A stretch of 31,872 bases of DNA from a virus (IMGVR_UViG_3300045988_180666); one strand, 5' to 3'; counted from the first letter of the stretch, positions 7,116-28,940 are shown. Notes: a model not told the origin generated them from the sequence alone. Program-made: numbers and translations.

Positions 7116-7125
7116 ATGCAAAGAT
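7116..7125 (-). promoter_or_regulatory. Promoter -7 element (TATCTTTG on minus strand) for the 1159-aa gene
   Basis: Plus-strand TGCAAAGATA 14-23 nt from ATG at 7102; reverse complement matches Bacteroidetes -7 consensus TAnnTTTG. Confidence 0.55.
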
Positions 7126-7154
7126 AGGTATGATGAGAACTATATAAAAATACG

Positions 7155-7613
7155 CTAGATCGGTGTGCCGAACATCTGCTTGAAGATGTCTGCCATCAGT
7201 CCCTGGTACTCATCGCCATAGAAGTAGCCCTCCATGTCGTTGAGCTTCATGATGGAGGCGTAGTACTTGCGATTGAACCATGGACGGCGCTGTCGTGGCT
7301 CGCCGAGGTTGTGCTTGGCACGGTACTCAGGGTCGAGGAACTCTAGGTCGCCGGGGTTGCCATGGTAATAGCCATTGCCTGTGCCCGTCTCTTGGTAGAG
7401 ACCGTAGAGCAGGAACTTGTGGGCTATCTGGCGAGAGGAACCGCCAAAGGATGTGGCTTGGACAGAGCTGAAGAGGGCACCGGTATGTCGGATGCGATAG
7501 TGGATGATTTTCTCTTTCCAGATATGCACCATCTCCTCTGCCCATCCTCGCTCGTAGGCGTAGATGTCCTCTTGTGAGACGGGTTGCTTGATGTCATTCG
7601 TTCCATTCCTCAT
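7155..7613 (-). CDS. Hypothetical phage protein
   Basis: ORF track, 152 aa. 20 nt overlap with upstream gene. Confidence 0.55.
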   Translation of the reverse strand: MRNGTNDIKQPVSQEDIYAYERGWAEEMVHIWKEKIIHYRIRHTGALFSSVQATSFGGSSRQIAHKFLLYGLYQETGTGNGYYHGNPGDLEFLDPEYRAKHNLGEPRQRRPWFNRKYYASIMKLNDMEGYFYGDEYQGLMADIFKQMFGTPI

Positions 7614-8124
7614 AATTATACTCCAGGTCTAGTGGCTCGCTCACGTCAAGATGGAACTCGACGCCTGTGAGACCGTTGATGAAATAGGCACCTATCTCTC
7701 GGCTGTCTATCTGGTCGCTGAGGGTGTAGGTGTTATAGTTGTCTTGCCAGTTGTATTTGTCGATGACAATCTTGCTCAGGAACTGTCGGAATATCTTGCG
7801 GCAGGTGTTGAGCTTCTCTTGTCGGTCGTTCATGTCGAACTGTTTGTATCGCATGAGAATCCACACGGTATAGGTCATCACCTTGCGATAGCTGCCATCG
7901 CCGTTGATGGCGACGTTGCCCTCGTTGGTGTCGTCGATGACCACGAAGTTTTTGCTCTTCGCCATATTCTGTAGCATGCCCTCAAACGAGGCAGGGGTGC
8001 TGCAGGTGGTTGGAGTGAAGCCAAGCTCGGAGGTGAGCTTGTTTTGGCGGGTGAGGTCTCTAAAGTAAGAGAAGGCATCGAACCCCACCTGAGTGTCGGG
8101 AGTCTTAACATCTGTACTGATCAT
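7594..8124 (-). CDS. Hypothetical phage protein
   Basis: ORF track, 176 aa. 4 nt overlap with upstream gene (8121-8124). Confidence 0.55.
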   Translation of the reverse strand: MISTDVKTPDTQVGFDAFSYFRDLTRQNKLTSELGFTPTTCSTPASFEGMLQNMAKSKNFVVIDDTNEGNVAINGDGSYRKVMTYTVWILMRYKQFDMNDRQEKLNTCRKIFRQFLSKIVIDKYNWQDNYNTYTLSDQIDSREIGAYFINGLTGVEFHLDVSEPLDLEYNYEEWNE

Positions 8125-8918
8125 GATTTTTGTTTTAATCGTTTGTCTAACTCGTCAGCCTCGCGAGCCTTGGCATCCAGTTCGGTGAGTGCTCGCCATA
8201 CGTCTGAGTCTCTAATCTGCCCTTCTTTGGTGATGTCGCCGCCCGTGAGGGCACGGATCTGGGCGTTCATCGCCTCTATCATATCGTAGTCGCCATCAGC
8301 TGAAGCTGGCTTGAAGAGGTGTGGAAAACTTGTGGAAAAGTTTTGCTTGACCCACATGAACCACAGGAAGGCACCCATCACCTCGACTGGCGTACACTCG
8401 ATATGTTCGGGTGGGTTGCCCTTGGCATCGAGATAGAGGTAGCGCATCATCTCTCTGAGCGGTGCGTCGCTCGACTGGTCTGACTGCAGAAACTGCTGGA
8501 AGTAGTTGTCGGCGATGAGGTAATGTTGAAATGGGTACTCGTGCAGCTCGATGTCGGCGGCTTGGAAAAGCCCGATATGATCGAGGCGGTTGTCTGCGCC
8601 CTTGCCGTCGAATATGTAGTCGAAGGCTTGGCAGAAGTCTTGCACTTGCCATAGCTGAAGGAAGAAGCGCACAGTCTTGCCACTGTCTAGCTGGGTTTGG
8701 CAGAGCCAGCCGTCTTTTTTCTCGTTGAGCACCTCGATGCCAGCGAAGCGAGCGAAGAGGTAGGTGCGCACCTGCCACTCTTGCCACCCTTGGGTGAGGA
8801 GGTAGAGCACGTAGCGCAGCTGGTCTTGGGTGAGCTCGCCCCAGGAGTGAGGCACGTGGAGGTTGAGCGTGCCGTCAGCCAGCAAAGAAGAAGGTTGTGT
8901 CGTCAGCATTGTTTTCAT
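8121..8918 (-). CDS. Hypothetical phage protein
   Basis: ORF track, 265 aa. Trp/Gln-rich, no recognisable motif. Confidence 0.55.
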   Translation of the reverse strand: MKTMLTTQPSSLLADGTLNLHVPHSWGELTQDQLRYVLYLLTQGWQEWQVRTYLFARFAGIEVLNEKKDGWLCQTQLDSGKTVRFFLQLWQVQDFCQAFDYIFDGKGADNRLDHIGLFQAADIELHEYPFQHYLIADNYFQQFLQSDQSSDAPLREMMRYLYLDAKGNPPEHIECTPVEVMGAFLWFMWVKQNFSTSFPHLFKPASADGDYDMIEAMNAQIRALTGGDITKEGQIRDSDVWRALTELDAKAREADELDKRLKQKS

Positions 8919-9762
8919 AAGCTATATTGTGGCTAGCCTTGTAGGCGGTGGAATCTCTATATTTGGCGAAGTCATCGATGTTATCGTCTATGAGGGAGAG
9001 TAGGCTGAAGAAGAGTTTGTCTCTCGCCCTGAGGTCGATGGAATCGCCGTTTTTTGTGATATGGCACCCGATGAAATCGTAGATGCGCATGATGGCGACC
9101 CGATGGGAGGTGGTCGGGAACTGAGCCTTGCGCTCCTCTTCGAGCAACTGGTCTATCTGTGCATCGGAGAGCTCTCGGCGCAGGAAGGTCTCGGCTTGGT
9201 CTATCTCGCCCTTGTGCGCCACGAGGTCATCGAAGGTAAGCTTGCCGGGGATGCCGCAGAACTTGTTGAGGATGTATGGCGACCAAATGAAGGAGCGGAT
9301 GGTGTTGAAGGCTTGCAAGCTGTCAGCCCAGCCCTCGACCTGTCGCAATCGGTTGATGACGTTGTGCTGGGCGTAGTCTCGCCTGTAGGCAAGCTCGTGC
9401 TCCATGGCATCGACACGAGCCTGTGAGGCTGGGGCGATGTTGTCGTTGGAGACCACCCCGAAGCCGTTGTCGGTCATGATGATGTCGTGGGAGTGGAGAC
9501 TATCGAGGAAGGTGGCCAGTATGACATAGTCTCTGGCGTAGCGCTGCAGGGGCGAGTCTTCGGTCGAGACCGCTTGCTCGGCATCTGCGCCCACGACGGT
9601 GGCGATAAGATCGTCAAAATGGTTCTCGAAGGATGGCTGCATCTTGGTGAAGACATCCTCGGAGGCTGCCGCCACGAATGGCAGCAGCTGCTCGAACTGG
9701 TTTATATCAATCTGTATCATCTTGTTGCTTTGATTTTTGGTTGTTGGAAACTTGCTTGGCAT
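8875..9762 (-). CDS. Hypothetical phage protein (start may be the ATG at about 9720, MIQIDINQF...)
   Basis: ORF track, 295 aa. Track start appears to be an upstream alternative start; first in-frame ATG about 42 nt downstream. Confidence 0.55.
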   Translation of the reverse strand: MPSKFPTTKNQSNKMIQIDINQFEQLLPFVAAASEDVFTKMQPSFENHFDDLIATVVGADAEQAVSTEDSPLQRYARDYVILATFLDSLHSHDIIMTDNGFGVVSNDNIAPASQARVDAMEHELAYRRDYAQHNVINRLRQVEGWADSLQAFNTIRSFIWSPYILNKFCGIPGKLTFDDLVAHKGEIDQAETFLRRELSDAQIDQLLEEERKAQFPTTSHRVAIMRIYDFIGCHITKNGDSIDLRARDKLFFSLLSLIDDNIDDFAKYRDSTAYKASHNIAYENNADDTTFFFAG

Positions 9763-11113: not shown

Positions 11114-11118
11114 AATCT

Positions 11119-11379: not shown

Positions 11380-11396
11380 ATATCTGAAGATGTTTT

Positions 11397-12458: not shown

Positions 12459-12479
12459 ATCAATGTCTCATTAAAACGA

Positions 12480-12489
12480 TGCAAAGATA
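12480..12489 (-). promoter_or_regulatory. Promoter -7 element for the 353-aa gene operon
   Basis: TGCAAAGATA about 22 nt from ATG at 12458; preceded (on minus strand) by hairpin + T-run. Confidence 0.55.
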
Positions 12490-12501
12490 GGAAGGAAGGG
12501 G

Positions 12502-12584
12502 AGAAAATAAAAATACCTGATTGTCATCACGACAACCAGGTATCGACTCATGGAGCGGACCACGCCTTGTTAAGCCTAAGGCTC
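12502..12584 (-). terminator. Tandem hairpins with T-run between the 103-aa gene and the 353-aa gene promoter
   Basis: Hairpin ATGGAGC (12549-12555) / GCTCCAT (12578-12584). Imperfect 12 bp inverted repeat TACCTGATTGTC (12514-12525) / GACAACCAGGTA (12531-12542) followed on minus strand by TTTTTATTTTCT. Confidence 0.45.
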
Positions 12585-12635: not shown

Positions 12636-12947
12636 TTACTCTTCGGGCTGTGCGCAGTTGATTATCCAGACGAGTCTGCCACCCTCGACAGACTTCATCT
12701 TGAAGCCGTGCTCGACCATGTACTCGGTGATGACGGGGATGGGAGCGACGACCATGCCGCTGATGGCCTCTTGTATATCTTTGGAGGATAGGAAGTCAAC
12801 GCATTGGCTGTATGGGTCATCGCCCGGTGTGTCGCCCTCGAAGTAAGCGTCGAGCGCCATGCGCACATAGTCGATCTTGCTCTCTTGCTCTGACTGTTGC
12901 TGCTCGTCGCTGTTAGCACTGAAGCCCATCACACGCATACGTTTCAT
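12636..12947 (-). CDS. Hypothetical small acidic phage protein
   Basis: ORF track, 103 aa. 4 nt overlap with upstream gene. Followed by tandem hairpins and a T-run. Confidence 0.5.
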   Translation of the reverse strand: MKRMRVMGFSANSDEQQQSEQESKIDYVRMALDAYFEGDTPGDDPYSQCVDFLSSKDIQEAISGMVVAPIPVITEYMVEHGFKMKSVEGGRLVWIINCAQPEE

Positions 12948-13213
12948 GCCTCACCTCCTTTCGTCTCCAGTGCTATGTTGATGGTCTTGAAGAGCTTGCT
13001 CATGTGGTCGAAGTTGTTGAGCATGAGTAGCACTTTGTCGGCACCGCCGAGGTCTTCGACACAGTTGGTCACCACCTCGTCTGAGATAAGCACCTTTTTG
13101 ACTTGCTCTAGGTACTCGATGAAGTAGCTGAGCTGGTTGACATCCATCATTTCTACGAGCGCATTCCAGACCTCTGCTGTCATGTGCATATTTGTTGCGT
13201 TGTTTGTGTTCAT
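12944..13213 (-). CDS. Hypothetical small phage protein
   Basis: ORF track, 89 aa. Overlaps upstream and downstream genes by 4 nt each. Confidence 0.5.
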   Translation of the reverse strand: MNTNNATNMHMTAEVWNALVEMMDVNQLSYFIEYLEQVKKVLISDEVVTNCVEDLGGADKVLLMLNNFDHMSKLFKTINIALETKGGEA

Positions 13214-13575
13214 GCTACGACTCCTCCCATCAGATAACCACCAAAGAAAACCACTGCCATGAAGGCTGCGAAGCCTAGTGTGGCCTTGACCACCTCGCCG
13301 TAGGTCACGCTCTCGTCGCAGAGTGCGGTGAAGGTCTCGCTCTCGGTCTTGGCGAGCTTCTTGATTTCACACTTGAGGGTATTGATACCCTCCTCTACGC
13401 TGATGCCTGCAGGTCTCACCTGCGCATCACTAATTAAAATTGAATTCTGCATAATTGCCATCTTATAACCATTATAGACCGACCTTGATGTATAAATACA
13501 ATGGTGGCGGTCACATTCACCGTTGGTTATAAGATGGTAGCTTTCCCAGCGAAGGGCAAGTATCTTACGGATCAT
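13210..13575 (-). CDS. Small membrane protein with single C-terminal transmembrane helix; holin/spanin-like candidate
   Basis: ORF track, 121 aa. Extreme C-terminus ATLGFAAFMAVVFFGGYLMGGVVA is one hydrophobic helix. Internal ATG at about 13461 is an alternative start. Function inferred from topology only. Confidence 0.45.
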   Translation of the reverse strand: MIRKILALRWESYHLITNGECDRHHCIYTSRSVYNGYKMAIMQNSILISDAQVRPAGISVEEGINTLKCEIKKLAKTESETFTALCDESVTYGEVVKATLGFAAFMAVVFFGGYLMGGVVA

Positions 13576-13814
13576 GCAACCGCCATATTGAAAAGACCTT
13601 TTTCCCGCTGCCGGGAAAATGATACTTTATAGGCATAAAAAAAGCCCACGGCGTGAAGCCTAGGCGAAACAGTCGCCATCGCTGAGTAGATTACTACTAT
13701 CTTATAACCGATGGCAAAAGTACGAAGAATAATTGGAACCGCCAAAAAAAAAGCGAGAAATTTTGAAATAAATGACTTTTTTATGTTTTAGAGCATAAAA
13801 CAAGGGGGTGAGGA

Positions 13815-13848
13815 ACGAAAAAGCCCCGGATGCTCACGCACCCGAGGC
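13815..13848 (-). terminator. Terminator after lower-GC three-gene cassette
   Basis: Stem GCCCCGG (13823-13829) / CCGAGGC (13842-13848) with one wobble; plus-strand A-run 13816-13822 gives T-run on minus strand; begins 7 nt after the stop at 13855. Confidence 0.5.
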
Positions 13849-13854
13849 TGACAG

Positions 13855-14247
13855 TTATTTTTGGAAATAAACTTTTAAAGGGATTGAATTCTCCACATTG
13901 CCAATTTTGAAAGAGAACTGATAGTTGCCCTCTGCAGGGAACTGGAGGTCGGAGAACTCAAAGATGAAGTTGCTGAAGAGAAACTCATCTGAAGGGTGTG
14001 GCTCAATCTTGGAATTGATGGGCTGGCCAAGAATCATCTTGCCAGTGCTCATCTCTGTAACCTCTGCCGAGAACTCTTGCTGAAGTTTGCTTTCCTCGCT
14101 GTTCATCTTAACTCTCGCTACCATGAAGAGGTTGCTCTTAGGCAGCGGTGCTTTTCTTACCACATAGTGGTCAAAAGTGCCCACGATGGTAAGTTTGCCG
14201 TCATTATCTTGTGCAAAGTCACACAATGCAAGAATATCTATGTTCAT
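13855..14247 (-). CDS. Hypothetical protein, gene 3 of lower-GC three-gene cassette
   Basis: ORF track, 130 aa. GC visibly lower than flanking structural genes. Stop directly followed by hairpin + T-run (13815-13848). Confidence 0.55.
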   Translation of the reverse strand: MNIDILALCDFAQDNDGKLTIVGTFDHYVVRKAPLPKSNLFMVARVKMNSEESKLQQEFSAEVTEMSTGKMILGQPINSKIEPHPSDEFLFSNFIFEFSDLQFPAEGNYQFSFKIGNVENSIPLKVYFQK

Positions 14248-14684
14248 TTTATATGTCCTTTAATGTTAGACTCGATAGCCGAGTGTTTGAAAAGTTTTTT
14301 ATAATTGTCGAATGAATATTTGAGTTTGCTCACCGTGCGCTTGTTTGTGCTCACTAGGTTGGCTCCATGTCTGCCAGAGATGCCTTCCTTGGTATTGAAC
14401 TTCAGAGAATTTCTTTTGGAGTCAACCCAAAGCCTGATGGCATCGCCTTGTATCTTGTCACCCACATTGCCATGGACGTTGAGATCTTCTCGTATTTTCT
14501 TGTCCTCTTCGTTGAGCTCAAGAGCTTCGGTGATTTCTACGGAACTATTTCGGTCTAGTTCGTATAATGTCATCTTTTTGCCCGTGATAGGTTCCTCTTT
14601 GAGTCCCTTCCACTCAGCCCTTCTGGCAATGACATCAGCTTTTTTGCCCTCTATGATTTCACCTTCTTTGATATATATAGCCAT
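14244..14684 (-). CDS. Hypothetical protein, gene 2 of lower-GC cassette
   Basis: ORF track, 146 aa. Lys-rich. 4 nt overlap with gene 3. Confidence 0.55.
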   Translation of the reverse strand: MAIYIKEGEIIEGKKADVIARRAEWKGLKEEPITGKKMTLYELDRNSSVEITEALELNEEDKKIREDLNVHGNVGDKIQGDAIRLWVDSKRNSLKFNTKEGISGRHGANLVSTNKRTVSKLKYSFDNYKKLFKHSAIESNIKGHIK

Positions 14685-15112
14685 TATTGGATACTTTTTT
14701 GCATTGATTTTTCACTGAAAGAGAATACCTCAGCCATATCATCAGGCGAGGTGATGCTCATGAGCGATGGGCTGACCTCAAGAGCCACCTCAATGTCTTC
14801 AATGGAAGCATCTTTATCTTGTTTGATGATGTACTTATCCTCATGCTCTTCAATCTCTTTATCAAACTCTTCTTCGGTAATATTGCCGTCAAGCATTTCG
14901 CAATATAGTTTGAAGTAGTTGCGCTCACGTGTGCGGTTGTTAACGGCACGAGTCATCAACTCCTTGAGTCTGTCGGCAGTACTGATGTTGAAAAAGTTAG
15001 CCTTATTGGTAACACCAGCGAATGCAACCTTGCCAGTACCTTTGTCTTGTATAGCCACAACAGGGCTGCCATCAGTTTGGTATGTTGTATATATAGTCGT
15101 TGTATTGCTCAT
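14684..15112 (-). CDS. Hypothetical protein, gene 1 of lower-GC cassette
   Basis: ORF track, 142 aa. ATG at 15112 is about 29 nt downstream of TGCAAAGATA motif (15141-15150). Acidic C-terminal half. Confidence 0.55.
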   Translation of the reverse strand: MSNTTTIYTTYQTDGSPVVAIQDKGTGKVAFAGVTNKANFFNISTADRLKELMTRAVNNRTRERNYFKLYCEMLDGNITEEEFDKEIEEHEDKYIIKQDKDASIEDIEVALEVSPSLMSITSPDDMAEVFSFSEKSMQKSIQ

Positions 15113-15140
15113 AATTCACATCCTGTTTATATTAACACGG

Positions 15141-15150
15141 TGCAAAGATA
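15141..15150 (-). promoter_or_regulatory. Promoter -7 element for the lower-GC three-gene cassette
   Basis: TGCAAAGATA about 29 nt from ATG at 15112; lies downstream of the radC terminator. Confidence 0.55.
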
Positions 15151-15266
15151 CGGATATTTTTTGTAAATCGCAAATTTAATGATAAATTTAACAACAAAAA
15201 TTGCAATAAAGATTGGAAAATGGTATATAAAAAATGCTCGACCGCTTTTTGGCTCTTGCCAGACGC

Positions 15267-15291
15267 TTTCGCCGCAGGCGAAAATTTTTGG
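15267..15291 (+). terminator. Possible plus-strand terminator hairpin adjacent to the radC terminator
   Basis: Stem TTTCGCC (15267-15273) / GGCGAAA (15277-15283), loop GCA, then ATTTTTGG on plus strand. No plus-strand gene ends here, so function unclear. Confidence 0.3.
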
Positions 15292-15320
15292 AAAATGAGG
15301 GGGAAGGTTTTAGCCTTCCC
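15283..15320 (-). terminator. Rho-independent terminator after radC
   Basis: Stem GGGGAAGG (15299-15306) / CCTTCCCC (15313-15320), loop TTTTAG; minus strand continues TCATTTTCCAAAAATT. Confidence 0.6.
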
Positions 15321-15323
15321 CTT

Positions 15324-15338
15324 ACCTTATTATATATA
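15324..15338 (-). repeat. Copy c (15 nt, inverted) of the AT-rich repeat
   Basis: Plus strand ACCTTATTATATATA = reverse complement of TATATATAATAAGGT; between radC stop and its terminator. Confidence 0.65.
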
Positions 15339-15340
15339 TA

Positions 15341-17462: not shown

Positions 17463-19064
17463 CTATAGCATGGAACCCGTGGCGATGTAGCCATCAGCCT
17501 GAGGGTATTTCTCCATGCCAATCATGAGCGTGTCGTAGGCATCGGAGCCATCGGTGCGAGCCTCCAACTTATCCTCCTCGGTCTCAGCCAGCTTCTCGCC
17601 TCGCTTATCCTTCTTGCCGTTGTAGACCCCGGCCAGGCGGATGGAGATGAGCAGGTCTTCGTTGTTCTCGCTGTTGATCATCGAGCGATGCTCAGCCTTG
17701 CCGAGGAACATGCGGTTGAGCAGAAGCATCTTTTCGAGATGTCCCATCGGGTTGCCCAGATAGACCTCGTTGACATACCAGCCATGGTCGGTGAGGTAGT
17801 CGGTGATGAAGGTATGGAAGTCATCGTTCATCAGGGCGTAGTTGTTGCCCACGAAGGTGGAGTCGTAGTAGAAGTTGACCTCTTTGCACCGATGGTACTC
17901 ATAGTACTGCATGAACTTGTCGAGCAGGGCTGGCAGCTTCTCCTCATACTTCACGAAGATGCTCTTGAGGCAGCGTGCCTCGCCCCGCAGGTTGTCTTGT
18001 CCGACGGCTATCCAGTTGATGAGGGCGTTGGCATCGAAGGCGATGCAGAGCGGACGGTCGGGGTCAACGTCGGCATCCATTCTGGAATCTACATGCTTGA
18101 GCTTGTCGATGTCGTAGCCCAAGCCATCGAGGTAGGCGAGGTTGGGCGCCGTGTATAGGTTGGCATCCCTGAGGTTGGAGTAGAAGCCATCGAGCGAGAT
18201 GGAAGGTCGCTTGCACATGATGGAGGTCTGGAAGGTGAGGGCAGGGAGGTCTCGCTTCATCTGCTTGATGAACTCCATGCCGAGCACCTCGATGTTATAG
18301 ACCGATGAGTACTCTTTATAGAAGAGTGCCTTGGAGCGCAGTTGCGCCAGGAGCTGACCAATCTCTCGGAGTCGGCGCTGGGCATAGCCTGAGACATGGC
18401 CCGAGGTCTTGATGCGGTTGCGTATGTCATACTCCTCTACCACGAGCGAGGCGATGGCGTCGATGAGCAGCTGGTCGCAGTCTTTCTTGTAGTTGAGGAA
18501 CCAGGAGCCCTTCTTGGTCACGGGCATATCAGAGGTGATGAGCATGCCATGGTGGTAGTAGTGCTGGCCGAAGAGGTTGACGTTGCCTCGATTGGCAGGG
18601 AAGGTCTCGTCTTTGAGCTGTTCGAAGTTGATGAACTTCGCCTCGTCGATGTCGAGGTAGTCGAGCGAGAGGGAGTTGGAGGTACCCTTGCGGTCTTGCG
18701 AGATGATGGTACCGATGGAGCCGTTATAGAAAGAGATGGTGTTCTCCCAGTTGCTGGGCGGTATGACCGGGTCGGGCCATCCCAGTTTTTTGGGAGGCTT
18801 GACCCCGATGAGATAATGCTTGCCCCGGTGGAAGCCCCATCGCTCCCAGTGCTGAAGCATCGACGGTATGGTGTTGGTGAGGCATCGCTTGGTGTTGGCG
18901 GATACGAAGCCGCCGTTGCTGCCAGGCATGCGCTGCATGTTGCGCAGGTTGAAGGTGGCGTGGAGAATGCTCTTGCCGATGCCTCGACCGCCCACGACCA
19001 CGTTGTCGCGGGCGGAGATGAGGTTGACCTCCATCTGGGCTGGGTTGAGATATTGATCTATCAT
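17463..19064 (-). CDS. terL: Terminase large subunit
   Basis: 533 aa. Walker A-like VVVGGRGIGKS near N-terminus, Walker B-like LDYLDIDEA. Size and position beside a small upstream gene with ATGA overlap fit a phage TerL. Confidence 0.75.
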   Translation of the reverse strand: MIDQYLNPAQMEVNLISARDNVVVGGRGIGKSILHATFNLRNMQRMPGSNGGFVSANTKRCLTNTIPSMLQHWERWGFHRGKHYLIGVKPPKKLGWPDPVIPPSNWENTISFYNGSIGTIISQDRKGTSNSLSLDYLDIDEAKFINFEQLKDETFPANRGNVNLFGQHYYHHGMLITSDMPVTKKGSWFLNYKKDCDQLLIDAIASLVVEEYDIRNRIKTSGHVSGYAQRRLREIGQLLAQLRSKALFYKEYSSVYNIEVLGMEFIKQMKRDLPALTFQTSIMCKRPSISLDGFYSNLRDANLYTAPNLAYLDGLGYDIDKLKHVDSRMDADVDPDRPLCIAFDANALINWIAVGQDNLRGEARCLKSIFVKYEEKLPALLDKFMQYYEYHRCKEVNFYYDSTFVGNNYALMNDDFHTFITDYLTDHGWYVNEVYLGNPMGHLEKMLLLNRMFLGKAEHRSMINSENNEDLLISIRLAGVYNGKKDKRGEKLAETEEDKLEARTDGSDAYDTLMIGMEKYPQADGYIATGSML

Positions 19065-21883: not shown

Positions 21884-21895
21884 AATTTTATCTCC

Positions 21896-21911: not shown

Positions 21912-21916
21912 AAACT

Positions 21917-23035
21917 TTACTCCTTGCCCTCAGCTCCGGTATCGTCTGCAGAAGAATTCTTCTGCTCTGCATCGCTAGCTGTGTTGCTGCTTGCAGGATC
22001 AGCACCTGAACCCTTTGTGATGAGCGATGTGGTACCATCGTTTGTGATGAACAGGGCTCGTTCTTTATTGATGCTCTCGTACTGGCAACCTAAGAACTTG
22101 GTGGCGATGAAGTCGAGCTTCCAAGGGTGGTACTTTTCTACGCTGATCTTCTCCTCGTCGCTGTTGTTTGCCTCGTTGACACCCACGAGCATATTGTTGC
22201 GAGTGGTGAGCTGGAAGAACGGAGCGTTCTTCTTGTTGATGAGTGGTACCATCTCAACGTTGTCGAAACCCTCGACGGTGTTGTGGTTGTAACCGGTATT
22301 GTATGGCACATTGCCAAACTTATTGAGGTAGTTGCGGTTGTAGAGATTGATGAACGCCTGTGGAACGTAGAGATAAAGCTTCTCTTCGCCAATCAGTTCT
22401 TCGTCAGCCTCCTCGCAAATGGCCTGTGCGAAGTCAACGGCGTTATCGCTGCTGATATTCTTACCACTGCCCAAAATATCTGAAACTTTGATGAGGTTGC
22501 CGAGGTCTCGAGACAGCTTGCCATTAGTCAACTCAGTCTTGGCGATGGTATCGAAACCATTGAAGAGGTCTTTTGAGCCTTTGCCCTCGTCGTTGCGCAC
22601 GGCATCGAAGAGGTGGAGGTTGAGGTTCTTGCCCAGCTTGAGCGCCAAGAGCTGCAGCACCTGAAGGGTGATTGGCACGTTCTTAAGCGCTTCGCCATTC
22701 ATGGCGTTGGCCCCCCAAATGGTGGAATAAACTGAGTTCGGGGAGAACTTGATGTCAACGTTGCCGAGGAACACCTGCAAAGTGCGAGGTGTAATCTTTA
22801 CGCCACCATCGCCCACGCGGTTCTCGTCGTATGGACCAAACTCTGCGTTGCCGAGCAACTCGCCCACGGTCTCTGAAACTCTGATGCCCGGGCGCAGGGT
22901 CATGTACTTGAGTGACTGAGCCAAGCCTTTGGTAGGCATCGTAATCAACTTCGAACGGTAAGTTTTCGCAGTGTTCTGCAGCTGTACATCGACATCTACA
23001 GGCACAATGAATTTATTATCTGCCATATTATGCAA
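21917..23035 (-). CDS. Putative major capsid protein
   Basis: ORF track, 372 aa. Immediately downstream of the ClpP-like protease gene, which is the usual capsid position. Size fits HK97-fold capsids. No motif confirmation. Confidence 0.45.
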   Translation of the reverse strand: MHNMADNKFIVPVDVDVQLQNTAKTYRSKLITMPTKGLAQSLKYMTLRPGIRVSETVGELLGNAEFGPYDENRVGDGGVKITPRTLQVFLGNVDIKFSPNSVYSTIWGANAMNGEALKNVPITLQVLQLLALKLGKNLNLHLFDAVRNDEGKGSKDLFNGFDTIAKTELTNGKLSRDLGNLIKVSDILGSGKNISSDNAVDFAQAICEEADEELIGEEKLYLYVPQAFINLYNRNYLNKFGNVPYNTGYNHNTVEGFDNVEMVPLINKKNAPFFQLTTRNNMLVGVNEANNSDEEKISVEKYHPWKLDFIATKFLGCQYESINKERALFITNDGTTSLITKGSGADPASSNTASDAEQKNSSADDTGAEGKE

Positions 23036-24053
23036 ACTGATTTAAAACATCCAACACTTGATCTGAGCAGAAATCCTCGACCTTGGTGTCATCGACAGCA
23101 GTGTGCGTGTCGCCACCAGGCTCTCCCTCCAGATCCTTCACTTTATCCTTCAGGTCATCTCTCTCCTTTTCGAGATTCTTGACCTTAGTCTCTAACTCCT
23201 TCTTCTCGTCCTTGACCTTCTGAAGCTCTGTGTCTTTGTCGGTCACGGCCTTGGAGTCGGCAGCGATCTTATCCTCCAGTTTCTGCATCTGCTCCTGTGA
23301 GATTGTGCAGTTCTTTGCGGAATCTTCTGCCTCAATGCCCTCGATATTGAGGACATTGTTGATGTGAGTCCATTTTTTGATCATATTAATAATTTTATTT
23401 TGTGATTTATCTTTGCCGAATAATCGGTCGATGATGCTTGGCTTTTTATCATACCAGGAGTTAACAACCTCTGGGAGAACAGGAAGGTTGTTGTACTTGA
23501 TGAAGTCTTGCGTCTGCTCGGTGATGTCGGCAGGCTTGCCATCCATGGCTTCATCGACGAGACCCAGTTCGATGCACTCATCGACGGTGTGCCACATCGC
23601 TTCGGACATCACCTTGACGATGTCCTCGTGCTTCTTGCCCGAGCGATCGCAGTAAACGTTGGCGATGATGTTGTCGATTTTCTGCTGGTTCTCTTGCTGT
23701 TTTTGAAGTTGCTCGATGAGCGAGCCTATCTGCTCCTCGTTGAGCGCAGACCACACAAACTGCTCGGTAGAGCACTTGTGTACCAGGAGCAAGCTATATT
23801 TGCTCATGCGAATCTTGCTGGCACCCATCGCACAGATGGTGGCAGCAGAGGCAGAGAAGCCCGCCTGGAAGTCAACGGTCACGTCGCCATGGGACTTGAA
23901 CATCTGACAGATGGCGAGACCTGCGGAGACCTCGCCACCCAAGGAGTCGATGGCAACATCGACGTGCTTATCTTTGTTGGCCTTAAGAACATCGCGAACC
24001 ATGAGCTTGGTCCACGAGCCAATATATCCTGTGATAGAAATTTGGTACTTCAT
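23028..24053 (-). CDS. ClpP-like prohead serine protease with C-terminal coiled-coil (scaffold-like) extension
   Basis: 341 aa. DSLGGEVSAGLAI, GFSASAATICAMGA and LLLVHK resemble ClpP/S14 catalytic regions. C-terminal 100 aa is Lys/Glu/Asp-rich heptad-like (KVKDEKKELETKVKNLEKERDDLKDKVKDLE). Confidence 0.75.
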   Translation of the reverse strand: MKYQISITGYIGSWTKLMVRDVLKANKDKHVDVAIDSLGGEVSAGLAICQMFKSHGDVTVDFQAGFSASAATICAMGASKIRMSKYSLLLVHKCSTEQFVWSALNEEQIGSLIEQLQKQQENQQKIDNIIANVYCDRSGKKHEDIVKVMSEAMWHTVDECIELGLVDEAMDGKPADITEQTQDFIKYNNLPVLPEVVNSWYDKKPSIIDRLFGKDKSQNKIINMIKKWTHINNVLNIEGIEAEDSAKNCTISQEQMQKLEDKIAADSKAVTDKDTELQKVKDEKKELETKVKNLEKERDDLKDKVKDLEGEPGGDTHTAVDDTKVEDFCSDQVLDVLNQFA

Positions 24054-24074
24054 ATATCTTTGCGATTTTTACGG

Positions 24075-24084
24075 CGCAAAGATA
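24075..24084 (-). promoter_or_regulatory. Promoter -7 element for protease-capsid operon, embedded in a 12 bp-arm inverted repeat
   Basis: CGCAAAGATA about 22 nt from ATG at 24053; forms right arm of palindrome TATATCTTTGCG (24053-24064) / CGCAAAGATATA (24075-24086). Confidence 0.5.
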
Positions 24085-24113
24085 TATAATAATGTATAAG
24101 GATAAAAAAACTT

Positions 24114-24533
24114 TTATTGGATGATTTGGAGCGGTTTTATCACGTCAGACCATGTCACGGTATAAGTGATGAGCGATGAGTCTGTGTGTGAGCTTGGCAT
24201 ATTTTCGGTGCGAGTGAGCACCGGGAAGGGACGCTGGTCTCTGCCCAGAAGATAGGCGCACCCATCGGCGGTAGTCACCTTGTAGGCGAGCGGGTGAACC
24301 TCTGAGTCTATCTGCTCGCTCGACTTGAAGGTGAGCTTTGAAGTGAAAATGCGAACCTTGGACTCAATTTTGTCGGTGATTTCACAACTCGACGGCATTT
24401 TGCACTTTATCTGCTGGAAGACTGCACTTGCAGGAATGATGCAAAGATTTTTGGCTGGGAAGATGACAGCCTTGAGGTCATCGGCTCTCACGACCTCAAT
24501 CTTGATGATGTTTTTGATGTATGACATAAGCAT
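24114..24533 (-). CDS. Hypothetical phage protein
   Basis: ORF track, 139 aa. No recognisable motif. Confidence 0.5.
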   Translation of the reverse strand: MLMSYIKNIIKIEVVRADDLKAVIFPAKNLCIIPASAVFQQIKCKMPSSCEITDKIESKVRIFTSKLTFKSSEQIDSEVHPLAYKVTTADGCAYLLGRDQRPFPVLTRTENMPSSHTDSSLITYTVTWSDVIKPLQIIQ

Positions 24534-24612
24534 GAAAATTTATCTTTTTGTTTGGAATCGACGGATATTTCGGTTTTGTTCGGAGTTGTTTGCAGAGACG
24601 GAAAAATTTGTA

Positions 24613-25197: not shown

Positions 25198-25215
25198 ATA
25201 GCTATGCAATTTTCG

Positions 25216-25225
25216 TGCAAAGATA
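25216..25225 (-). promoter_or_regulatory. Promoter -7 element for the 194-aa gene
   Basis: TGCAAAGATA about 20 nt from ATG at about 25197. Confidence 0.55.
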
Positions 25226-25339
25226 CAAAGAAAATTTGAAATAACTAACGATAATCGGTAAAAACTAACTTTTATCAGTAAATTTGGTGTGATATAATTT
25301 CGTCCGAAAAGTTTGTATTTTTGTATCGTACAAACAAGG

Positions 25340-25593
25340 CTCTGTAACTAGCTGATAATCAATACTATTTTTGTGATACAATTTTCTGATACAGAAATTG
25401 TAACTCTTTAGCTTTTGTAACTTGGGGTTTTGTCGAGGTCGAAGACCTGTAGGAGAAGGGGCTTGTTACAAACTTGAAAAACTTTGTAACAGAGTTGTAA
25501 CGCAACTTTGTAAACATCGGCAAGGCGGCTTAACTCCATCTTTTATAATTATTTACCTCTTTTGCCAACATTATGTTACAGAGTTACAAAGGA
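25340..25593. repeat. Iteron-like array of at least 9 TTGTAAC / GTTACAA elements in both orientations
   Basis: Copies at about 25343, 25399, 25416, 25464 (rev), 25485, 25496, 25507 (variant), 25576 (rev), 25584 (rev). Includes near-repeats TGTAACAGAGTTGTAAC and TGTTACAGAGTTACAAAG. Downstream of primase gene. Confidence 0.6.
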
Positions 25594-25733
25594 TTTGTAT
25601 AAAATAAAAGAAAGGGGTGTGGGGAAAACGATGGCACGGGGCGTGAAGGAGGATAGGGAAGGCCCATCGAGACACCCAGGACACCCCCATTGGCCAATGG
25701 AGGGGTAGCGAGACGAAACATCGCCCATGGCAA

Positions 25734-25770
25734 CGAAAAAAGGGAGCGACGGCCAATGCGCATCGCTCCC
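25734..25770 (-). terminator. Rho-independent terminator after primase-helicase gene
   Basis: 8 bp GC stem GGGAGCGA (25742-25749) / TCGCTCCC (25763-25770); plus-strand A-run 25736-25741 gives TTTTTT on minus strand. Confidence 0.65.
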
Positions 25771-25951
25771 TCGTAACATGGGAAAAGAATTATAAATCAG
25801 CAAAAATCTGCCTATGAAATCAGCCCTCGTCTGCTTGCAAAAATAGTGAAAAATTGCTTGAAAATTTAGCCGAAAATATTTGCATAATTCAGATATTTTT
25901 TGTACCTTTGCACTATAACTTGGGGCTATCTATTCTATTATATATGGATGG

Positions 25952-28906
25952 CTAGAAAGGTTTATCACTATCTTTATCTACCTTGCTCCAGTCAATGGTA
26001 GATTGATATTCACCCCCAGCTGCAGGGACATCAGCCTTGGCAGCTTGTTTATCCTCTTTTTTATCATCACTCTTCTTGCTTCGGAGATAGATCATCTCGA
26101 CAGGGCTGCCGTCTGGGTTAGCTGGATCGCGTCTGATGATGCGGTGCTGGCTGTTGCAGAGATCAGCTGGGTTCAGCTCTTGGATGTATGGACACAGCTC
26201 GACGAAGGCTCTGAGCTTTTTGGTGAAGCTCTGTGTGGTCGCCTTGTTGATGCCTGAGAACTGCTTGAAGTCATTGAACGCACGCTCTCTCACGATAAAT
26301 GTATCGAGTCGCTCGCTCTCTTCTGAGAAGTAGGATGCAGCCCAGTCTTCGAAGTTGACACCCATGTCGGCCTTGAACTTGCGCTTGATGATGTTATCCA
26401 TCGGTGGCATGATCTTGATAGGTTCGCCAGCCAAGGAGAGATAGAAACGACAGCACTGCAGGAAAAAGTTGATGTCAGCATTCCACTCATCCTCAGTGTA
26501 TGTCTTTGAGAAGAGATCTTCGTCGAAGTCATCACGGATGCTTCGGGTCTCTTGGTAATCATTCTCCTCTGTGCGCTGATGGTAATAGTCGGAGAACACC
26601 ATATAGAGCAGTCTCGCCTCTGAGGAAGGGTCGAAGTCTGCCGGCACGTAGTTGGTGGTGAAGGCAATCTTCGGGCTATCCTCGAAAGGAATTGTGAAGC
26701 TCTGGTTGTTCTTTGGGTTGACTGTCATATCTGAAGTAATGTTATCGTAAAATAAACCTGTGTTGAGATAGCGGTCACAGTCATCGAGGAGCAGCATCTG
26801 GGTGTGCTGTGTCACCTGATCGAAGACGTGTGGGTTGTCCATCAGCTTAGGGTTGCGTCCGGAAAGCTTGACTGTTTTCATCAGCAGTGAAAGCGTCTTG
26901 AAGAAGAAACTCTTACCGGAACGGCCGTTGCACTCGTTGTTTTCACCAATCTTGTTGTCCATCGCCATCGGAGCCCAAGCCCTGGATGGTGCCTTGTAAT
27001 GATGGAGCATGTAGCCGAAGGTGAAAATCTTGTTTATCAAGTTCTGCTTTTGCTCTTGTATCTCGTTGTCGGCAAGCCCTTCGCCAGCGATGTCGAAGAG
27101 GTGTGCCTTGTGGTATGCCTCTTTCTCCTCGATGCTCTTGTCCTCAAAAGCATACTCTAGCTCTTTGCGCCAGTAGGTGCGAGAGGCGTTGATGAGATAG
27201 CCGAAGAAGTGGGACTTCACGTTCTTGACCTCGATGTCGAACTTCGGCCTGCCATCCTCGTCGATGGTTCGGGTGATGGAGAACATGTCATCCAACTTCT
27301 TGAAGTTGTGGTTGATGACATTCTCTTGCCAAACATAGTTTTTGAGCGAGCTGCCCTCACGCTGGTACTCGTTTAGTCCATCTTTGGTGACCTCGACGCT
27401 GACACGAGGGAAGAAGAACAACTGCGAGTGGTTGGTGTAGCTGGTGAAGTCTAGCGTAATCTCTTGGAGCGAGTCGAGCGCCGATGCCGACAGCTTTGGC
27501 GTGTTGAGCACCAAGTTAAGGATGTCACGCTTCTCAGCTCTCTCGATGACCCATTGGCGGCAGAACTCACGGATGTCTCTCGTGGTGATGAGCTTGACGA
27601 TGTTGCCCGTGATGCGAACATATTTGGTGATGGTCGAGTTGTCATCGTGCAAGGTATAGAAACCATTGAGACGAAGAAAATTGTAGAGGCACGCCGTGTC
27701 GATGTAGTGGTCCCAGGTGTTAGCCTTTTTGTTGAGCTTGCTCACCCAAAATCGGGCTGGCATCGCCAGTGTCATGAGGTTGCGGAAGTCTTTGCGAGTA
27801 TTGCGCAGCTCCATCCAGTCTCGCAGGTCTTTGCGCCCCTTGCCACGGTTGTCGTGGTAGGTGCGAAGCCAAGAAGGCAACCATATCGTATGGATGTCGA
27901 TGAAGCGCAGGGCAAGCTCTGTGCCCTTGGCGATGCCCGTCTCGTCGATGTCGGGTATATTGTAGAGCACCTCGACATACTTCATAATCTCTCGGTACTC
28001 CTCGTCGCTGAGCTTGTAGGTCTCGGAGTTGAACCATAACGGGTTGTAGCCCATGGAACGGCAGCAGAGACTGTCACGCTCGCCACTGCAGATGAAAGCC
28101 TCGGGAAGTTTCTTCTCCTTGTAAGGCTTGGACTCGTCTGTGTTGGTCTTGTTGTACTCAGCCTCTTCACGGCGGTTGAACTCGTGATAGGCAGCCTTCA
28201 GCTCAGCTAGGCCATTGATGTATTGCTTAGGCTTGATGCCGTCTGGGGTGTAAGAGAATCGCCACTGCTTTTGGTAGTTGAGAGGCTCATATATCTTGTA
28301 GAACTTAACCTCAGGCTTGTCGCCTTCAGCTGGGCGAACCAAGCACTCACGCATAAAGATAGGGTAGTGCTCGTTGCTGTGCTTAATCTTGACCTTGCGG
28401 TCTTTGACGTATCCTATCCACTTGGCGGAATGCCAGTTGAGCGCATCGACGTGCTCTTGCTTGACGTTTGGACCCAGTACCTTCAGTTCATCTTCGGTGA
28501 ACTTCTCGTTCAGCTCGAAAGGTCTGGTACCATCTTTCTCGTTGATGGTGGCATCACGCTCTGTGAACGTAGGCTTGTTGACCTCTTTTTTGAGTTCATC
28601 GCTAACGTTGTATTCGGAAGCCAGTCGCAGGATAGCATCAGGAAAGCGGTCGATGCACTTCTCTCTCATGTAGAGGTCGATAGGTGACTCGGCAGATCCG
28701 TCGCCGCCGAAGTCTGTCACTCGCCAGCAGTCTTTGAACTTTTTGAGACTGCAGGAAGGTGTTTTCTCATTGCGGATGGCAAAGTGCTTTTTAGGCGTGC
28801 CAGTCGTGCAATATTTCTGGATGCATTCTTTTGCGTCCGGGTATAGTGAGATGATGATGTCGAGACCATCATCTGTAGCTTGATAAATTTGTTCTGCTTT
28901 GATCAT
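25952..28906 (-). CDS. Replicative primase / SF3 (D5/P4-like) helicase
   Basis: Track ORF of 994 aa. P-loop NGRSGKSF followed about 45 aa later by Walker B-like MLLLDDCD in C-terminal third. Track start overlaps the promoter -7 element, so the ATG at about 28906 (MIKAEQIYQ...) is the likely start. Confidence 0.7.
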   Translation of the reverse strand: MIKAEQIYQATDDGLDIIISLYPDAKECIQKYCTTGTPKKHFAIRNEKTPSCSLKKFKDCWRVTDFGGDGSAESPIDLYMREKCIDRFPDAILRLASEYNVSDELKKEVNKPTFTERDATINEKDGTRPFELNEKFTEDELKVLGPNVKQEHVDALNWHSAKWIGYVKDRKVKIKHSNEHYPIFMRECLVRPAEGDKPEVKFYKIYEPLNYQKQWRFSYTPDGIKPKQYINGLAELKAAYHEFNRREEAEYNKTNTDESKPYKEKKLPEAFICSGERDSLCCRSMGYNPLWFNSETYKLSDEEYREIMKYVEVLYNIPDIDETGIAKGTELALRFIDIHTIWLPSWLRTYHDNRGKGRKDLRDWMELRNTRKDFRNLMTLAMPARFWVSKLNKKANTWDHYIDTACLYNFLRLNGFYTLHDDNSTITKYVRITGNIVKLITTRDIREFCRQWVIERAEKRDILNLVLNTPKLSASALDSLQEITLDFTSYTNHSQLFFFPRVSVEVTKDGLNEYQREGSSLKNYVWQENVINHNFKKLDDMFSITRTIDEDGRPKFDIEVKNVKSHFFGYLINASRTYWRKELEYAFEDKSIEEKEAYHKAHLFDIAGEGLADNEIQEQKQNLINKIFTFGYMLHHYKAPSRAWAPMAMDNKIGENNECNGRSGKSFFFKTLSLLMKTVKLSGRNPKLMDNPHVFDQVTQHTQMLLLDDCDRYLNTGLFYDNITSDMTVNPKNNQSFTIPFEDSPKIAFTTNYVPADFDPSSEARLLYMVFSDYYHQRTEENDYQETRSIRDDFDEDLFSKTYTEDEWNADINFFLQCCRFYLSLAGEPIKIMPPMDNIIKRKFKADMGVNFEDWAASYFSEESERLDTFIVRERAFNDFKQFSGINKATTQSFTKKLRAFVELCPYIQELNPADLCNSQHRIIRRDPANPDGSPVEMIYLRSKKSDDKKEDKQAAKADVPAAGGEYQSTIDWSKVDKDSDKPF

Positions 28907-28932
28907 AATTCTTTTCCATTGTAAATTTGCTT

Positions 28933-28940
28933 GCAAAATT
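28933..28940 (-). promoter_or_regulatory. Promoter -7 element for primase-helicase gene
   Basis: Plus-strand CAAAATTA = reverse complement TAATTTTG, about 28 nt upstream of ATG at about 28906. Confidence 0.45.

What the first reader, a model, noticed from the sequence alone, without database searches (positions are those of the whole stretch)
7116..28940. Conserved extended promoter motif TGCAAAGATA upstream of five minus-strand operons defines the transcription map
Five intergenic sites (7116-7125, 12480-12489, 15141-15150, 24075-24084, 25216-25225) carry an identical or near-identical 10-mer whose reverse complement TATCTTTGCA contains the Bacteroidetes -7 element TAnnTTTG. Each lies 14-29 nt upstream of a start codon, and several sit just downstream of hairpin + T-run terminators. 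The conservation beyond the core -7 element suggests a phage-specific promoter class, possibly recognised with a phage-encoded factor. Variant -7 elements precede the primase and early genes, which is consistent with temporal classes.
Basis: partly seen in the sequence, partly recalled or inferred. Interest (0 to 1): 0.45.

Follow-up and report, generated by a model that had tools for sequence, protein, structure and literature searches.

The report
Ordinary host-type promoters in a Segatella prophage
The repeated TATCTTTGCA motif is real and marks promoters of a prophage living in a gut Segatella (Prevotella) bacterium, but it is the host's normal promoter signal and not a phage-specific one, so the finding is largely ordinary.

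Summary
TATCTTTGCA/G (minus strand) occurs at 7117, 12480, 15141, 24075 and 25216, all intergenic, 14-28 nt before minus-strand start codons (6 matches to TATCTTTGCR against 0.11 expected).

The window is a prophage of the Segatella (Prevotella) copri complex. DNA right of about 30300 is host.

The sites are very probably real promoters:
- TAnnTTTGC[AG] is about 50 times denser in intergenic than in coding DNA.
- About 55 related phages keep a TAnnTTTGC box at every orthologous site.

The "phage-specific extended motif" reading fails on four counts:
- The GCA extension is the host's own consensus: 66% of host promoter-like TAnnTTTG sites are followed by CA, against 9% in coding DNA. Published S. 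copri dRNA-seq also gives a -7 box ending in CA.
- The exact 10-mer occurs 38 times in the 1.15 Mb host sample, where the contexts listed look like promoters.
- The "TC" drifts to AC, TT, CT or AT in relatives.
- The primase promoter is TATCTTTGCA in most relatives.

The five sites have three different upstream architectures. No sigma factor or activator gene was recognised.

Verdict: host sigma-A -7/-33 promoters; a new member of a known kind.

Side observations: a covarying terminator whose T-run continues into the -33-like position, a conserved palindrome across the protease -7 box and start codon, and paired operator-like sites.

The parts
7117..7126 (-). -7 box TATCTTTGCA, 14 nt before the ATG (7102) of the 1159-aa gene (presumed tape measure, by size and position only)
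   Evidence: The orthologous site in relatives keeps TA(TC/TT/AC)TTTGC.
7144..7153 (-). GTATTTTTAT T-run, 17 nt upstream of the -7 box: a surrogate for the -33 element (TTTT/TTTA in place of TTTG)
   Evidence: Some relatives have GTATTTTTG, i.e. a canonical TTTG, at the same place. Family consensus.
12480..12489 (-). -7 box TATCTTTGCA, 21 nt before the ATG (12458) of the 353-aa structural-module gene
   Evidence: All 60 loci keep TA(T/A)CTTTGCA and a conserved 5' UTR GTTTTAATGAGACA.
12507..12544 (-). Intrinsic terminator hairpin (14 pairs). Its T-run GTATTTTTAT (12507-12516, overlapping the last stem pairs) lies at the -33-like position of the next promoter.
   Evidence: -21.5 kcal/mol, z -4.97; 96.7% of cells paired, 7 of 14 pairs changed on both sides, 0 of 500 shuffles as good.
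15141..15150 (-). -7 box TATCTTTGCA, 28 nt before the ATG (15112) of the first gene of a low-GC cassette of small genes
   Evidence: Relatives have TATC, TACT, TATT or TAAT at this site.
15171..15174 (-). Canonical -33 TTTG, 20 nt upstream of the 15141 box
   Evidence: Host-derived PWM score 31.6, close to the host's own TetR promoter.
24075..24084 (-). -7 box TATCTTTGCG, 21 nt before the ATG (24053) of the ClpP-type head maturation protease gene
   Evidence: Most relatives have TAACTTTGCG/A here.
24102..24111 (-). GTTTTTTTAT T-run, 17 nt upstream of the box, starting 3 nt after the stop codon of the upstream gene; no hairpin
24052..24087 (.). Palindrome ATATATCTTTGCG-N10-CGCAAAGATATAT. The left arm is the -7 box; the right arm runs into the protease start codon.
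   Evidence: -16.2 kcal/mol, z -6.05; 92.9% paired in 7 distinct relatives, with one pair changed on both sides (TATC/GATA to TAAC/GTTA); the only window promoter with such a repeat.
25216..25225 (-). -7 box TATCTTTGCA, 18 nt before the ATG (25197) of a 194-aa protein. A tail-tube-fold gene (24114-24527) follows.
25244..25279 (.). Two operator-like 16-bp palindromes ACYNA-N6-TNRGT (25244-25259 and 25264-25279), overlapping the -33 region of the 25216 promoter
   Evidence: (repeat family D1)
29837..29874 (.). Two more copies of the same operator-like palindrome (29837-29852 and 29859-29874), upstream of the 29808 promoter and beside the repressor gene
29808..29817 (-). -7 box TAACTTTGCA of the first leftward gene. 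It lies face-to-face with the + strand box TAATTTTG (29799-29806), which would serve the repressor-like gene 29903-30280.
   Evidence: Most relatives have TATCTTTGCA here.
30535..30544 (+). Host TetR-family gene promoter: TTTG-N20-TACTTTTGCA. An internal control showing that the GCA extension is host-type.

Best explanation
The five TATCTTTGC(A/G) sites are -7 elements of ordinary Bacteroidota primary-sigma (sigma-A, 'sigma-ABfr' type) promoters in a prophage of the Segatella (Prevotella) copri complex. Host RNA polymerase holoenzyme would bind TAnnTTTG(CA), start 5-8 nt downstream, and make short A-rich leaders of about 8-24 nt.

Shown:
- the motif, its intergenic and strand bias, and its conservation in position across a large phage family;
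- its identity with the host's own extended consensus.

Inferred:
- the transcription start sites and use of the host sigma factor;
- that the uniform 'TC' in this genome is lineage drift or a preference inside the free 'nn' positions, not a recognition determinant.

The five promoters differ in their upstream halves, so they need not be co-regulated:
- 7117, 12480 and 24075 (structural operons) have GT(A/T)TTTTTAT exactly 17 nt upstream. This is a weakened -33 box; at 12480 the same T-run follows, and partly belongs to, the preceding terminator hairpin.
- 15141 has a canonical TTTG -33 box and drives a low-GC accessory cassette.
- 25216 has two operator-like palindromes shared with the immunity-region promoter.
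For: Motif and chance.

Intergenic bias: TAnnTTTGC[AG] falls 12 of 14 times in the 10.5% intergenic DNA, p = 1.4e-10.

Host identity: the repressor gene is the last prophage gene, followed by host TetR, SDR, pseudouridine synthase, TamB and Omp85 genes. The TetR protein is 100% identical to Prevotella sp. CAG:732 and 93-99% to Segatella species.

Host consensus:
- Of 244 host promoter-like TAnnTTTG sites, 66% are followed by CA, against 9% in coding DNA. TC is one of the common nn pairs at 12-15%.
- The host TetR promoter in the window is TTTG-N20-TACTTTTGCA.
- Exact TATCTTTGCA occurs 38 times in 1.15 Mb of host DNA. TAnnTTTGCA density is the same in host and prophage, 29.0 and 29.7 per 100 kb.

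Literature:
- S. copri dRNA-seq gives a -7 box 'TAnnTTTCA' [sic] in more than 70% of primary start sites and a -33 box in only 15% (bioRxiv 10.1101/2024.04.05.588293).
- B. thetaiotaomicron has the same promoter architecture (PMC7366714).
- A Bacteroides phage promoter, P_BfP1E6, drives strong constitutive expression in Bacteroides strains without any phage present (bioRxiv 10.1101/2025.03.18.644028).

Relatives: every orthologous site keeps TAnnTTTGC while nn drifts. The strand bias is 230 to 11.

The T-run as a -33 surrogate: some relatives have TTTTTG there, and the primase promoter has GTATTTTG in the same register.
Against: - No transcription start data exist for this element, so promoter activity and dependence on the host sigma factor are inferred.
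- All five boxes sharing TC is unlikely if they were independent draws from host frequencies (about 8e-5), and the phage family as a whole favours TATC/TAAC more than the host does.
- TTTTTAT-N16-18-TAnnTTTG occurs 3 times in the window and only 2 times in 1.15 Mb of host DNA. The three structural-operon promoters score lowest with a host-derived PWM (11.8-19.3, against 29-38 for the others). Both facts would also fit weak, activator-dependent late promoters.
- Most phage proteins have no recognisable function, so a novel regulator cannot be excluded.
Confidence: 0.8

Rival explanations
1. One reading: TATCTTTGCA promoters are a phage-specific class recognised with a phage-encoded factor (a sigma-like protein or activator) and are co-regulated as one temporal class.
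For: - All five boxes in this genome share TC (about 8e-5 under host frequencies).
- The exact 10-mer is about 4 times denser in the prophage than in host DNA.
Against: - The GCA extension is host-generic, and the exact 10-mer also occurs in the host DNA sample.
- TC is replaced by AC, TT, CT or AT at orthologous sites in relatives, with mixtures inside single genomes.
- The primase promoter has TATCTTTGCA in most relatives.
- The five sites have three different upstream architectures.
- No sigma or activator family was hit in PHROGs, Pfam, NCBIfam or PDB. The 137-aa neighbour is a tail-tube fold.
Confidence: 0.07
2. A narrower version: only the three structural-operon promoters (7117, 12480, 24075; GT(A/T)TTTTTAT-N17-TA(T/A)CTTTGC) form a family-specific late class. 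Their degenerate -33 box makes them weak with host polymerase alone and dependent on a phage activator. The palindrome at 24052-24087 would be that activator's operator, or a transcript-specific translation gate.
For: - The composite pattern occurs 3 times in 31.9 kb and 2 times in 1.15 Mb of host DNA. The T-run is kept at the 353-aa gene and protease sites in all relatives, and at the TMP site in most (37 of 57 by the pattern used).
- These three promoters have the lowest host-PWM scores.
- The palindrome is conserved, with one pair changed on both sides.
Against: - Only 15% of S. copri primary start sites have a recognisable -33 box, so a weak -33 is normal there.
- In some relatives the T-run is a canonical TTTG.
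- At 12480 the T-run is explained by the terminator.
- No activator was identified.
- The palindrome occurs at one promoter only, and its covariation support is thin.
Confidence: 0.12
3. The 10-mer is not a promoter element. It would be a protein operator, a recombination or module-boundary sequence, or a by-product of composition.
For: - The sites lie at module junctions, and the cassette behind 15141 varies among relatives.
- One copy is part of a palindrome.
Against: - It matches the host -7 consensus base for base, at the distance from start codons expected of a promoter, and only on the coding strand.
- Base composition favours the opposite strand: the negative AT skew on the + strand makes the T-rich motif more likely there.
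- Shuffles never reach the observed counts.
Confidence: 0.02

Closest known systems
Bacteroidota primary sigma factor (sigma-ABfr) promoter: -7 box TAnnTTTG plus -33 TTTG (Bayley et al. 2000 and Vingadassalom et al. 2005, as cited in PMC7366714; S. copri dRNA-seq, bioRxiv 10.1101/2024.04.05.588293)
   Same: Exact TAnnTTTG core. C-A after the G, as in host promoters and in the published S. copri logo text. Intergenic, on the coding strand, with short A-rich leaders. A canonical TTTG -33 box at 15141 and before the primase gene.
   Different: Three of the five sites have TTTT/TTTA instead of TTTG at the -33 position, inside a conserved GT(A/T)TTTTTAT. The nn pair is uniformly TC in this genome, against 12-15% in the host. 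The inferred leaders are much shorter than the S. copri mean of about 70 nt.
P_BfP1E6, the Bacteroides phage promoter used as a strong constitutive promoter in synthetic biology (described in bioRxiv 10.1101/2025.03.18.644028, which cites Whitaker et al. 2017)
   Same: A phage promoter in a Bacteroidales host that works with host polymerase alone and across species. This is a precedent for phage promoters being host-type.
   Different: The promoters in this window have not been tested.
Phage-specific late promoter classes read through phage factors: T4 late promoters with gp55/gp33, P2 Ogr- and Mu C-dependent late promoters, RinA/ArpU-type late activators (from my own knowledge)
   Same: A repeated motif in front of structural operons; weak or absent upstream element at three sites.
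   Different: In those systems the motif differs from the host consensus and a dedicated factor gene is present. Here the motif equals the host consensus, drifts within the host's free positions, and no factor gene was recognised.
Operator-controlled early promoters of temperate phages, lambda OR/OL type (from my own knowledge)
   Same: Paired 16-bp palindromes about two helical turns apart, overlapping the -33 region of two promoters. One pair lies next to a divergent HTH repressor-like gene.
   Different: One of the two operator-bearing promoters (25216) precedes a tail-tube-fold gene, not obviously early genes. Binding has not been tested.

Membership tests
Bacteroidota sigma-A (-7/-33) promoter | -7 box matching TAnnTTTG | tested here: met
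   5 of 5 sites match exactly.
Bacteroidota sigma-A (-7/-33) promoter | Located in intergenic DNA, on the strand of the downstream gene, a short distance before the start codon | tested here: met
   All five are intergenic and on the minus strand, 14-28 nt before an ATG. In relatives the count is 230 on the gene strand against 11 on the opposite strand.
Bacteroidota sigma-A (-7/-33) promoter | Flanking bases agree with the host's own promoter consensus (C-A after the G) | tested here: met
   66% CA at 244 host promoter-like sites, against 9% in coding DNA; 47% of 132 clusters. The published S. copri -7 box ends in CA.
Bacteroidota sigma-A (-7/-33) promoter | -33 TTTG element about 17-23 nt upstream of the -7 box | tested here: inconclusive
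   Canonical at 15141 (TTTG-N20). TTTT/TTTA inside GT(A/T)TTTTTAT at 7117, 12480 and 24075, which is TTTG in some relatives. No TTTG box at the usual -33 distance at 25216. Only 15% of S. copri start sites have this box.
Bacteroidota sigma-A (-7/-33) promoter | Primary transcription start about 5-8 nt downstream of the box; dependence on host sigma-A holoenzyme | not testable with these tools
   Needs dRNA-seq, primer extension or in vitro transcription.
Bacteroidota sigma-A (-7/-33) promoter | Purifying selection on the specified bases and freedom at nn | tested here: met
   At six orthologous sites in about 55 relatives, TA, TTTG and C are kept while nn varies among TC, AC, TT, CT and AT.
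Phage-specific promoter class read with a phage-encoded factor | Motif distinct from the host consensus | tested here: not met
   The 10-mer equals a common host variant and is found 38 times in 1.15 Mb of host DNA.
Phage-specific promoter class read with a phage-encoded factor | The extra bases are conserved at orthologous sites in related phages | tested here: not met
   TC is replaced at 4 of 5 sites in relatives, and single genomes mix variants.
Phage-specific promoter class read with a phage-encoded factor | Motif confined to one temporal or regulatory class | tested here: not met
   Three upstream architectures among the five sites. The primase promoter carries the same 10-mer in most relatives. 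Timing itself was not measured.
Phage-specific promoter class read with a phage-encoded factor | A phage gene for a sigma-like protein, activator or polymerase | tested here: inconclusive
   [not shown]
Intrinsic (Rho-independent) terminator upstream of the promoters | Stable GC-rich hairpin directly followed by a T-run, conserved as a structure | tested here: met
   Met only at 12507-12544: -21.5 kcal/mol, z -5.0; 96.7% paired, 7 pairs changed on both sides. Not met at 7117 (z -0.8), 24075 or 25216. A weaker hairpin lies about 150 nt upstream of 15141.

The most novel reading that the evidence does not exclude
The three structural-operon promoters (GT(A/T)TTTTTAT-N17-TA(T/A)CTTTGC(A/G) at 7117, 12480 and 24075) could be a family-specific late promoter class with a deliberately weakened -33 box that needs an unrecognised phage activator. 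A candidate is the 194-aa winged-helix-like protein encoded just upstream.

The conserved palindrome joining the protease -7 box to its start codon could then be that activator's operator. Alternatively it could be a switch that lets only locally initiated transcripts be translated, because read-through transcripts would fold the AUG into a -16 kcal/mol hairpin.
Probability: 0.12. Interest if true: 0.5.

Novelty: new member of a known kind. Interest (0 to 1): 0.2.

Why it matters
The practical value is modest.
- It gives a promoter and terminator map for a widespread, uncharacterised prophage family of the Segatella copri complex. One phage protein is indexed in 777 blocks of the metagenome collection, on contigs up to the 0.2-1 Mb class.
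- It offers compact candidate promoters and one well-supported terminator for Segatella genetics.
- It shows that 'extended' conservation around TAnnTTTG should be checked against the host consensus (TAnnTTTGCA) before a phage-specific factor is proposed.

It does not open a new mechanism.

Tried and rejected
- Close annotated phage relative: megablast of 25 kb against 50,697 phage records found only a 562-nt match in an unannotated record.
- Rfam and tRNA scans of the window found nothing.
- Sigma-70-type promoter scan: uninformative for this host (24 found against 15.4 expected).
- Full-text search for 'TATCTTTG': only unrelated papers.
- Idea that phage -7 boxes are generally the left arm of an inverted repeat reaching the 5' UTR. 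I saw examples in relatives, but the systematic test failed: phage and host promoter sets do not differ (Mann-Whitney p = 0.78 and 0.70). Only the protease promoter stands out.
- Naming the 353-aa and 367-aa structural proteins: no PHROG, Pfam or PDB match. I therefore do not call either one the capsid protein.
- Reading the + strand box at 24055 as a conserved antisense promoter: in the commonest relatives that arm reads CAACTTAGCG, which is not a -7 box.
- Clustering host promoter contexts into orthologous groups was only rough; single linkage produced one group of 84. The host frequencies are therefore approximate.

Full report
**Observation**

TGCAAAGATA is exact on the + strand at 7117-7126, 12480-12489, 15141-15150 and 25216-25225. 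The copy at 24075-24084 has one mismatch. Read on the minus strand the sites are TATCTTTGCA (four) and TATCTTTGCG (one).

- TATCTTTGCR: 6 matches against 0.11 expected from dinucleotide shuffles. The sixth is the + strand partner of a palindrome at 24055.
- TANNTTTGCR: 14 matches against 1.74 expected.
- The gaps from the 10-mer to the next minus-strand ATG are 14, 21, 28, 21 and 18 nt.

**What the window is**

Nearly all genes are on the minus strand. Few have a recognisable function:
- a ClpP-type head maturation protease (23028-24053);
- a weak large-terminase match (17463-19064);
- a 1159-aa protein, presumably the tape measure by its size and position only (3623-7102);
- an HTH repressor-like protein on the + strand (29903-30280).

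Exact-protein look-ups place the element in gut-metagenome contigs of 50-230 kb. There the repressor-like gene is the last phage gene, followed by TetR, short-chain dehydrogenase, pseudouridine synthase, TamB and Omp85 genes. The TetR protein of the window (30592-31188) is 100% identical to that of Prevotella sp. CAG:732 and 93-99% identical to Segatella copri-complex genomes. The window is therefore a prophage of the Segatella (Prevotella) copri complex, and DNA right of about 30300 is host. No close annotated phage exists in the phage collection.

**Are the sites promoters?**

- TAnnTTTGC[AG] occurs 14 times, 12 of them in the 10.5% of the window that is intergenic: 3.6 against 0.07 per kb, p = 1.4e-10.
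- Base composition would favour the T-rich motif on the + strand (negative AT skew), yet the intergenic copies lie on the gene strand.
- About 115 loci from related viral contigs were fetched. Their proteins are 74-100% identical to the 353-aa protein, and most are 79-100% identical to the protease. Every orthologous site keeps a TAnnTTTGC box at nearly the same distance from the start codon.
- In these loci TATCTTTGC[ACG] is found 230 times on the gene strand and 11 times on the other.

**Is the extension beyond TAnnTTTG phage-specific?**

No.

- I built a host background from 80 Prevotellaceae loci around the TetR gene, 1.15 Mb in all.
- Of 244 distinct intergenic TAnnTTTG sites lying upstream of an ORF on the same strand, 66% are followed by CA, against 9% of sites in coding DNA.
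- The nn pair is CT 25%, AT 15%, TT 14% and TC 12%.
- After rough clustering into 132 groups, CA is the majority in 47% and TC in 15%, joint first.
- The host TetR promoter inside the window reads TTTG-N20-TACTTTTGCA.
- Exact TATCTTTGCA occurs 38 times in the host sample. The most frequent contexts have a CTTG or TTTG box upstream, as promoters do; one context is a prophage primase promoter. The density of TAnnTTTGCA is the same in host and prophage, 29.0 and 29.7 per 100 kb.
- The S. copri dRNA-seq study reports a -7 box written 'TAnnTTTCA' in over 70% of primary start sites, and a -33 box in only 15%. B. thetaiotaomicron shows the same two-box architecture.
- A Bacteroides phage promoter is already used as a strong constitutive promoter in Bacteroides strains without any phage present.

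The only part of the 10-mer that is not host-generic is 'TC'. It is not conserved in relatives:
- the TMP site has TATC, TATT or TAAC;
- the 353-aa gene site has TATC or TAAC;
- the protease site has TATC or, mostly, TAAC;
- the 15112 site has TATC, TACT, TATT or TAAT;
- only the 25197 site is always TATC.

Single genomes mix variants. So TATC does not mark a temporal class. The uniform TC in this genome is unlikely under independent draws from host frequencies (about 8e-5). It behaves as a lineage feature inside the free positions of the box.

**Upstream halves differ**

- *Sites 7117, 12480 and 24075*, in front of structural operons, have TTTTTAT exactly 17 nt upstream of the box.
  - This composite occurs three times in the window and twice in 1.15 Mb of host DNA.
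  - The T-run is conserved in relatives.
  - It occupies the -33 position. In some relatives the TMP site reads TTTTTG, a canonical TTTG, and the primase promoter has GTATTTTG in the same register. I read it as a weakened -33 box.
  - At 12480 the T-run follows a 14-pair hairpin and partly belongs to it (-21.5 kcal/mol, z -5.0). The hairpin is kept in relatives with 96.7% of cells paired and 7 pairs changed on both sides. Terminator and promoter share the T-run.
  - At 7117 and 24075 there is no significant hairpin.
- *Site 15141* has a canonical TTTG-N20 -33 box and heads a low-GC cassette of small unannotated genes (43-46% GC). The cassette is bounded by hairpins and is variable among relatives.
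- *Site 25216* has two 16-bp palindromes, ACYNA-N6-TNRGT, 20 nt apart and overlapping its -33 region. The same pair lies upstream of the 29808 promoter, next to the repressor-like gene. These look like operators.

A PWM built from the host sites ranks 25216, 15141 and 29808 close to the host TetR promoter (29-38 bits). The three structural-operon promoters rank lowest (11.8-19.3). Eleven of the top twelve hits are intergenic.

**Search for a phage factor**

No sigma factor, polymerase or known late activator was hit in PHROGs, Pfam, NCBIfam or PDB sequences.

The two genes between 25216 and the protease promoter were modelled.

A factor therefore cannot be excluded, but nothing points to one.

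**Protease-promoter palindrome**

ATATATCTTTGCG-N10-CGCAAAGATATAT (24052-24087) joins the -7 box to the start codon (-16.2 kcal/mol as RNA, z -6.05). Relatives keep it at 92.9% paired. One pair is changed on both sides (TATC/GATA to TAAC/GTTA), which is thin support. It is unique among the promoters of the window; a systematic comparison of phage and host promoters showed no general tendency. Its role is unknown. It could be an operator, or a hairpin that forms only in read-through transcripts.

**Verdict**

The sites are best explained as ordinary host sigma-A -7/-33 promoters of a Segatella prophage. The 'phage-specific extended motif', 'phage factor' and 'temporal class' parts of the interpretation are not supported. 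The transcription map is also larger than five sites: 28932, 29808, 29799(+), 13713, 25836 and 25903(+) are further candidates. This is a new member of a known kind, of low to moderate interest.

Noticed in passing
window 30281-31872; loci L067-L074: The right end of the window is host chromosome. The TetR-family gene at 30592-31188 is 100% identical to that of Prevotella sp. CAG:732, and the prophage ends just after the repressor-like gene. Many host assemblies break 1-2 kb upstream of this TetR gene.
   Followed up: partly
window 25226-25951: A 725-nt intergenic region between the primase-like gene and the 194-aa gene holds 8 GTTACA/TGTAAC iteron-like repeats (6-10 in relatives) and is a likely replication origin. 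Two promoter-like boxes on the strand opposite to the genes are conserved: TACCTTTGCA at 25903-25912 in 42 of 43 distinct relatives, and TATTTTTGTA at 25316-25325 in all. The first has the highest host-PWM score in the window and points into the 3' end of the primase-like gene.
   Followed up: partly
window 25736-25845 (minus strand): The box TATTTTTGCA (25836-25845) is followed about 60 nt later by a hairpin (25742-25770) and a T6 run. This could make a small RNA of about 95 nt. The segment is present only in the closest relatives, and Rfam has no match.
   Followed up: partly
window 29799-29817: Face-to-face -7 boxes 3 nt apart: TAATTTTG on the + strand (toward the repressor-like gene) and TAACTTTG on the minus strand (toward the first leftward gene). 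The two polymerase binding sites would overlap, which suggests a mutually exclusive switch.
   Followed up: no
window 29760-29788; L067 9860-9885: A homopolymer differs between the window (A7) and L067 (A8), just after the ATG at 29781. With A8 the ATG opens the 72-aa first leftward gene. With A7 it is out of frame and only a TTG at 29788 keeps the frame. This may be a sequencing error or a slippage-prone tract.
   Followed up: partly
window 12636-15340: A low-GC cassette (43-46%, against 51-57% around it) of seven small unannotated genes. It has its own canonical promoter (15141) and hairpins at 15300-15321 and 13822-13849. It is present in only part of the relatives and resembles an accessory ('moron'-type) cassette.
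   Followed up: partly
[not shown]
   Followed up: yes
window 7155-8124 (minus strand): Two ORFs overlapping by 20 nt (176 aa and 152 aa) lie directly upstream of the 1159-aa gene. This is the usual position of the tail assembly chaperone pair that is made by a programmed frameshift.
   Followed up: no
window 13713-13722 (minus strand): TACTTTTGCC with an upstream TTTG scores 28.8 with the host PWM. It lies inside a doubtful 57-aa TTG-start ORF, about 100 nt after the strong terminator at 13822-13849. It is a likely additional promoter for 13210-13575.
   Followed up: no
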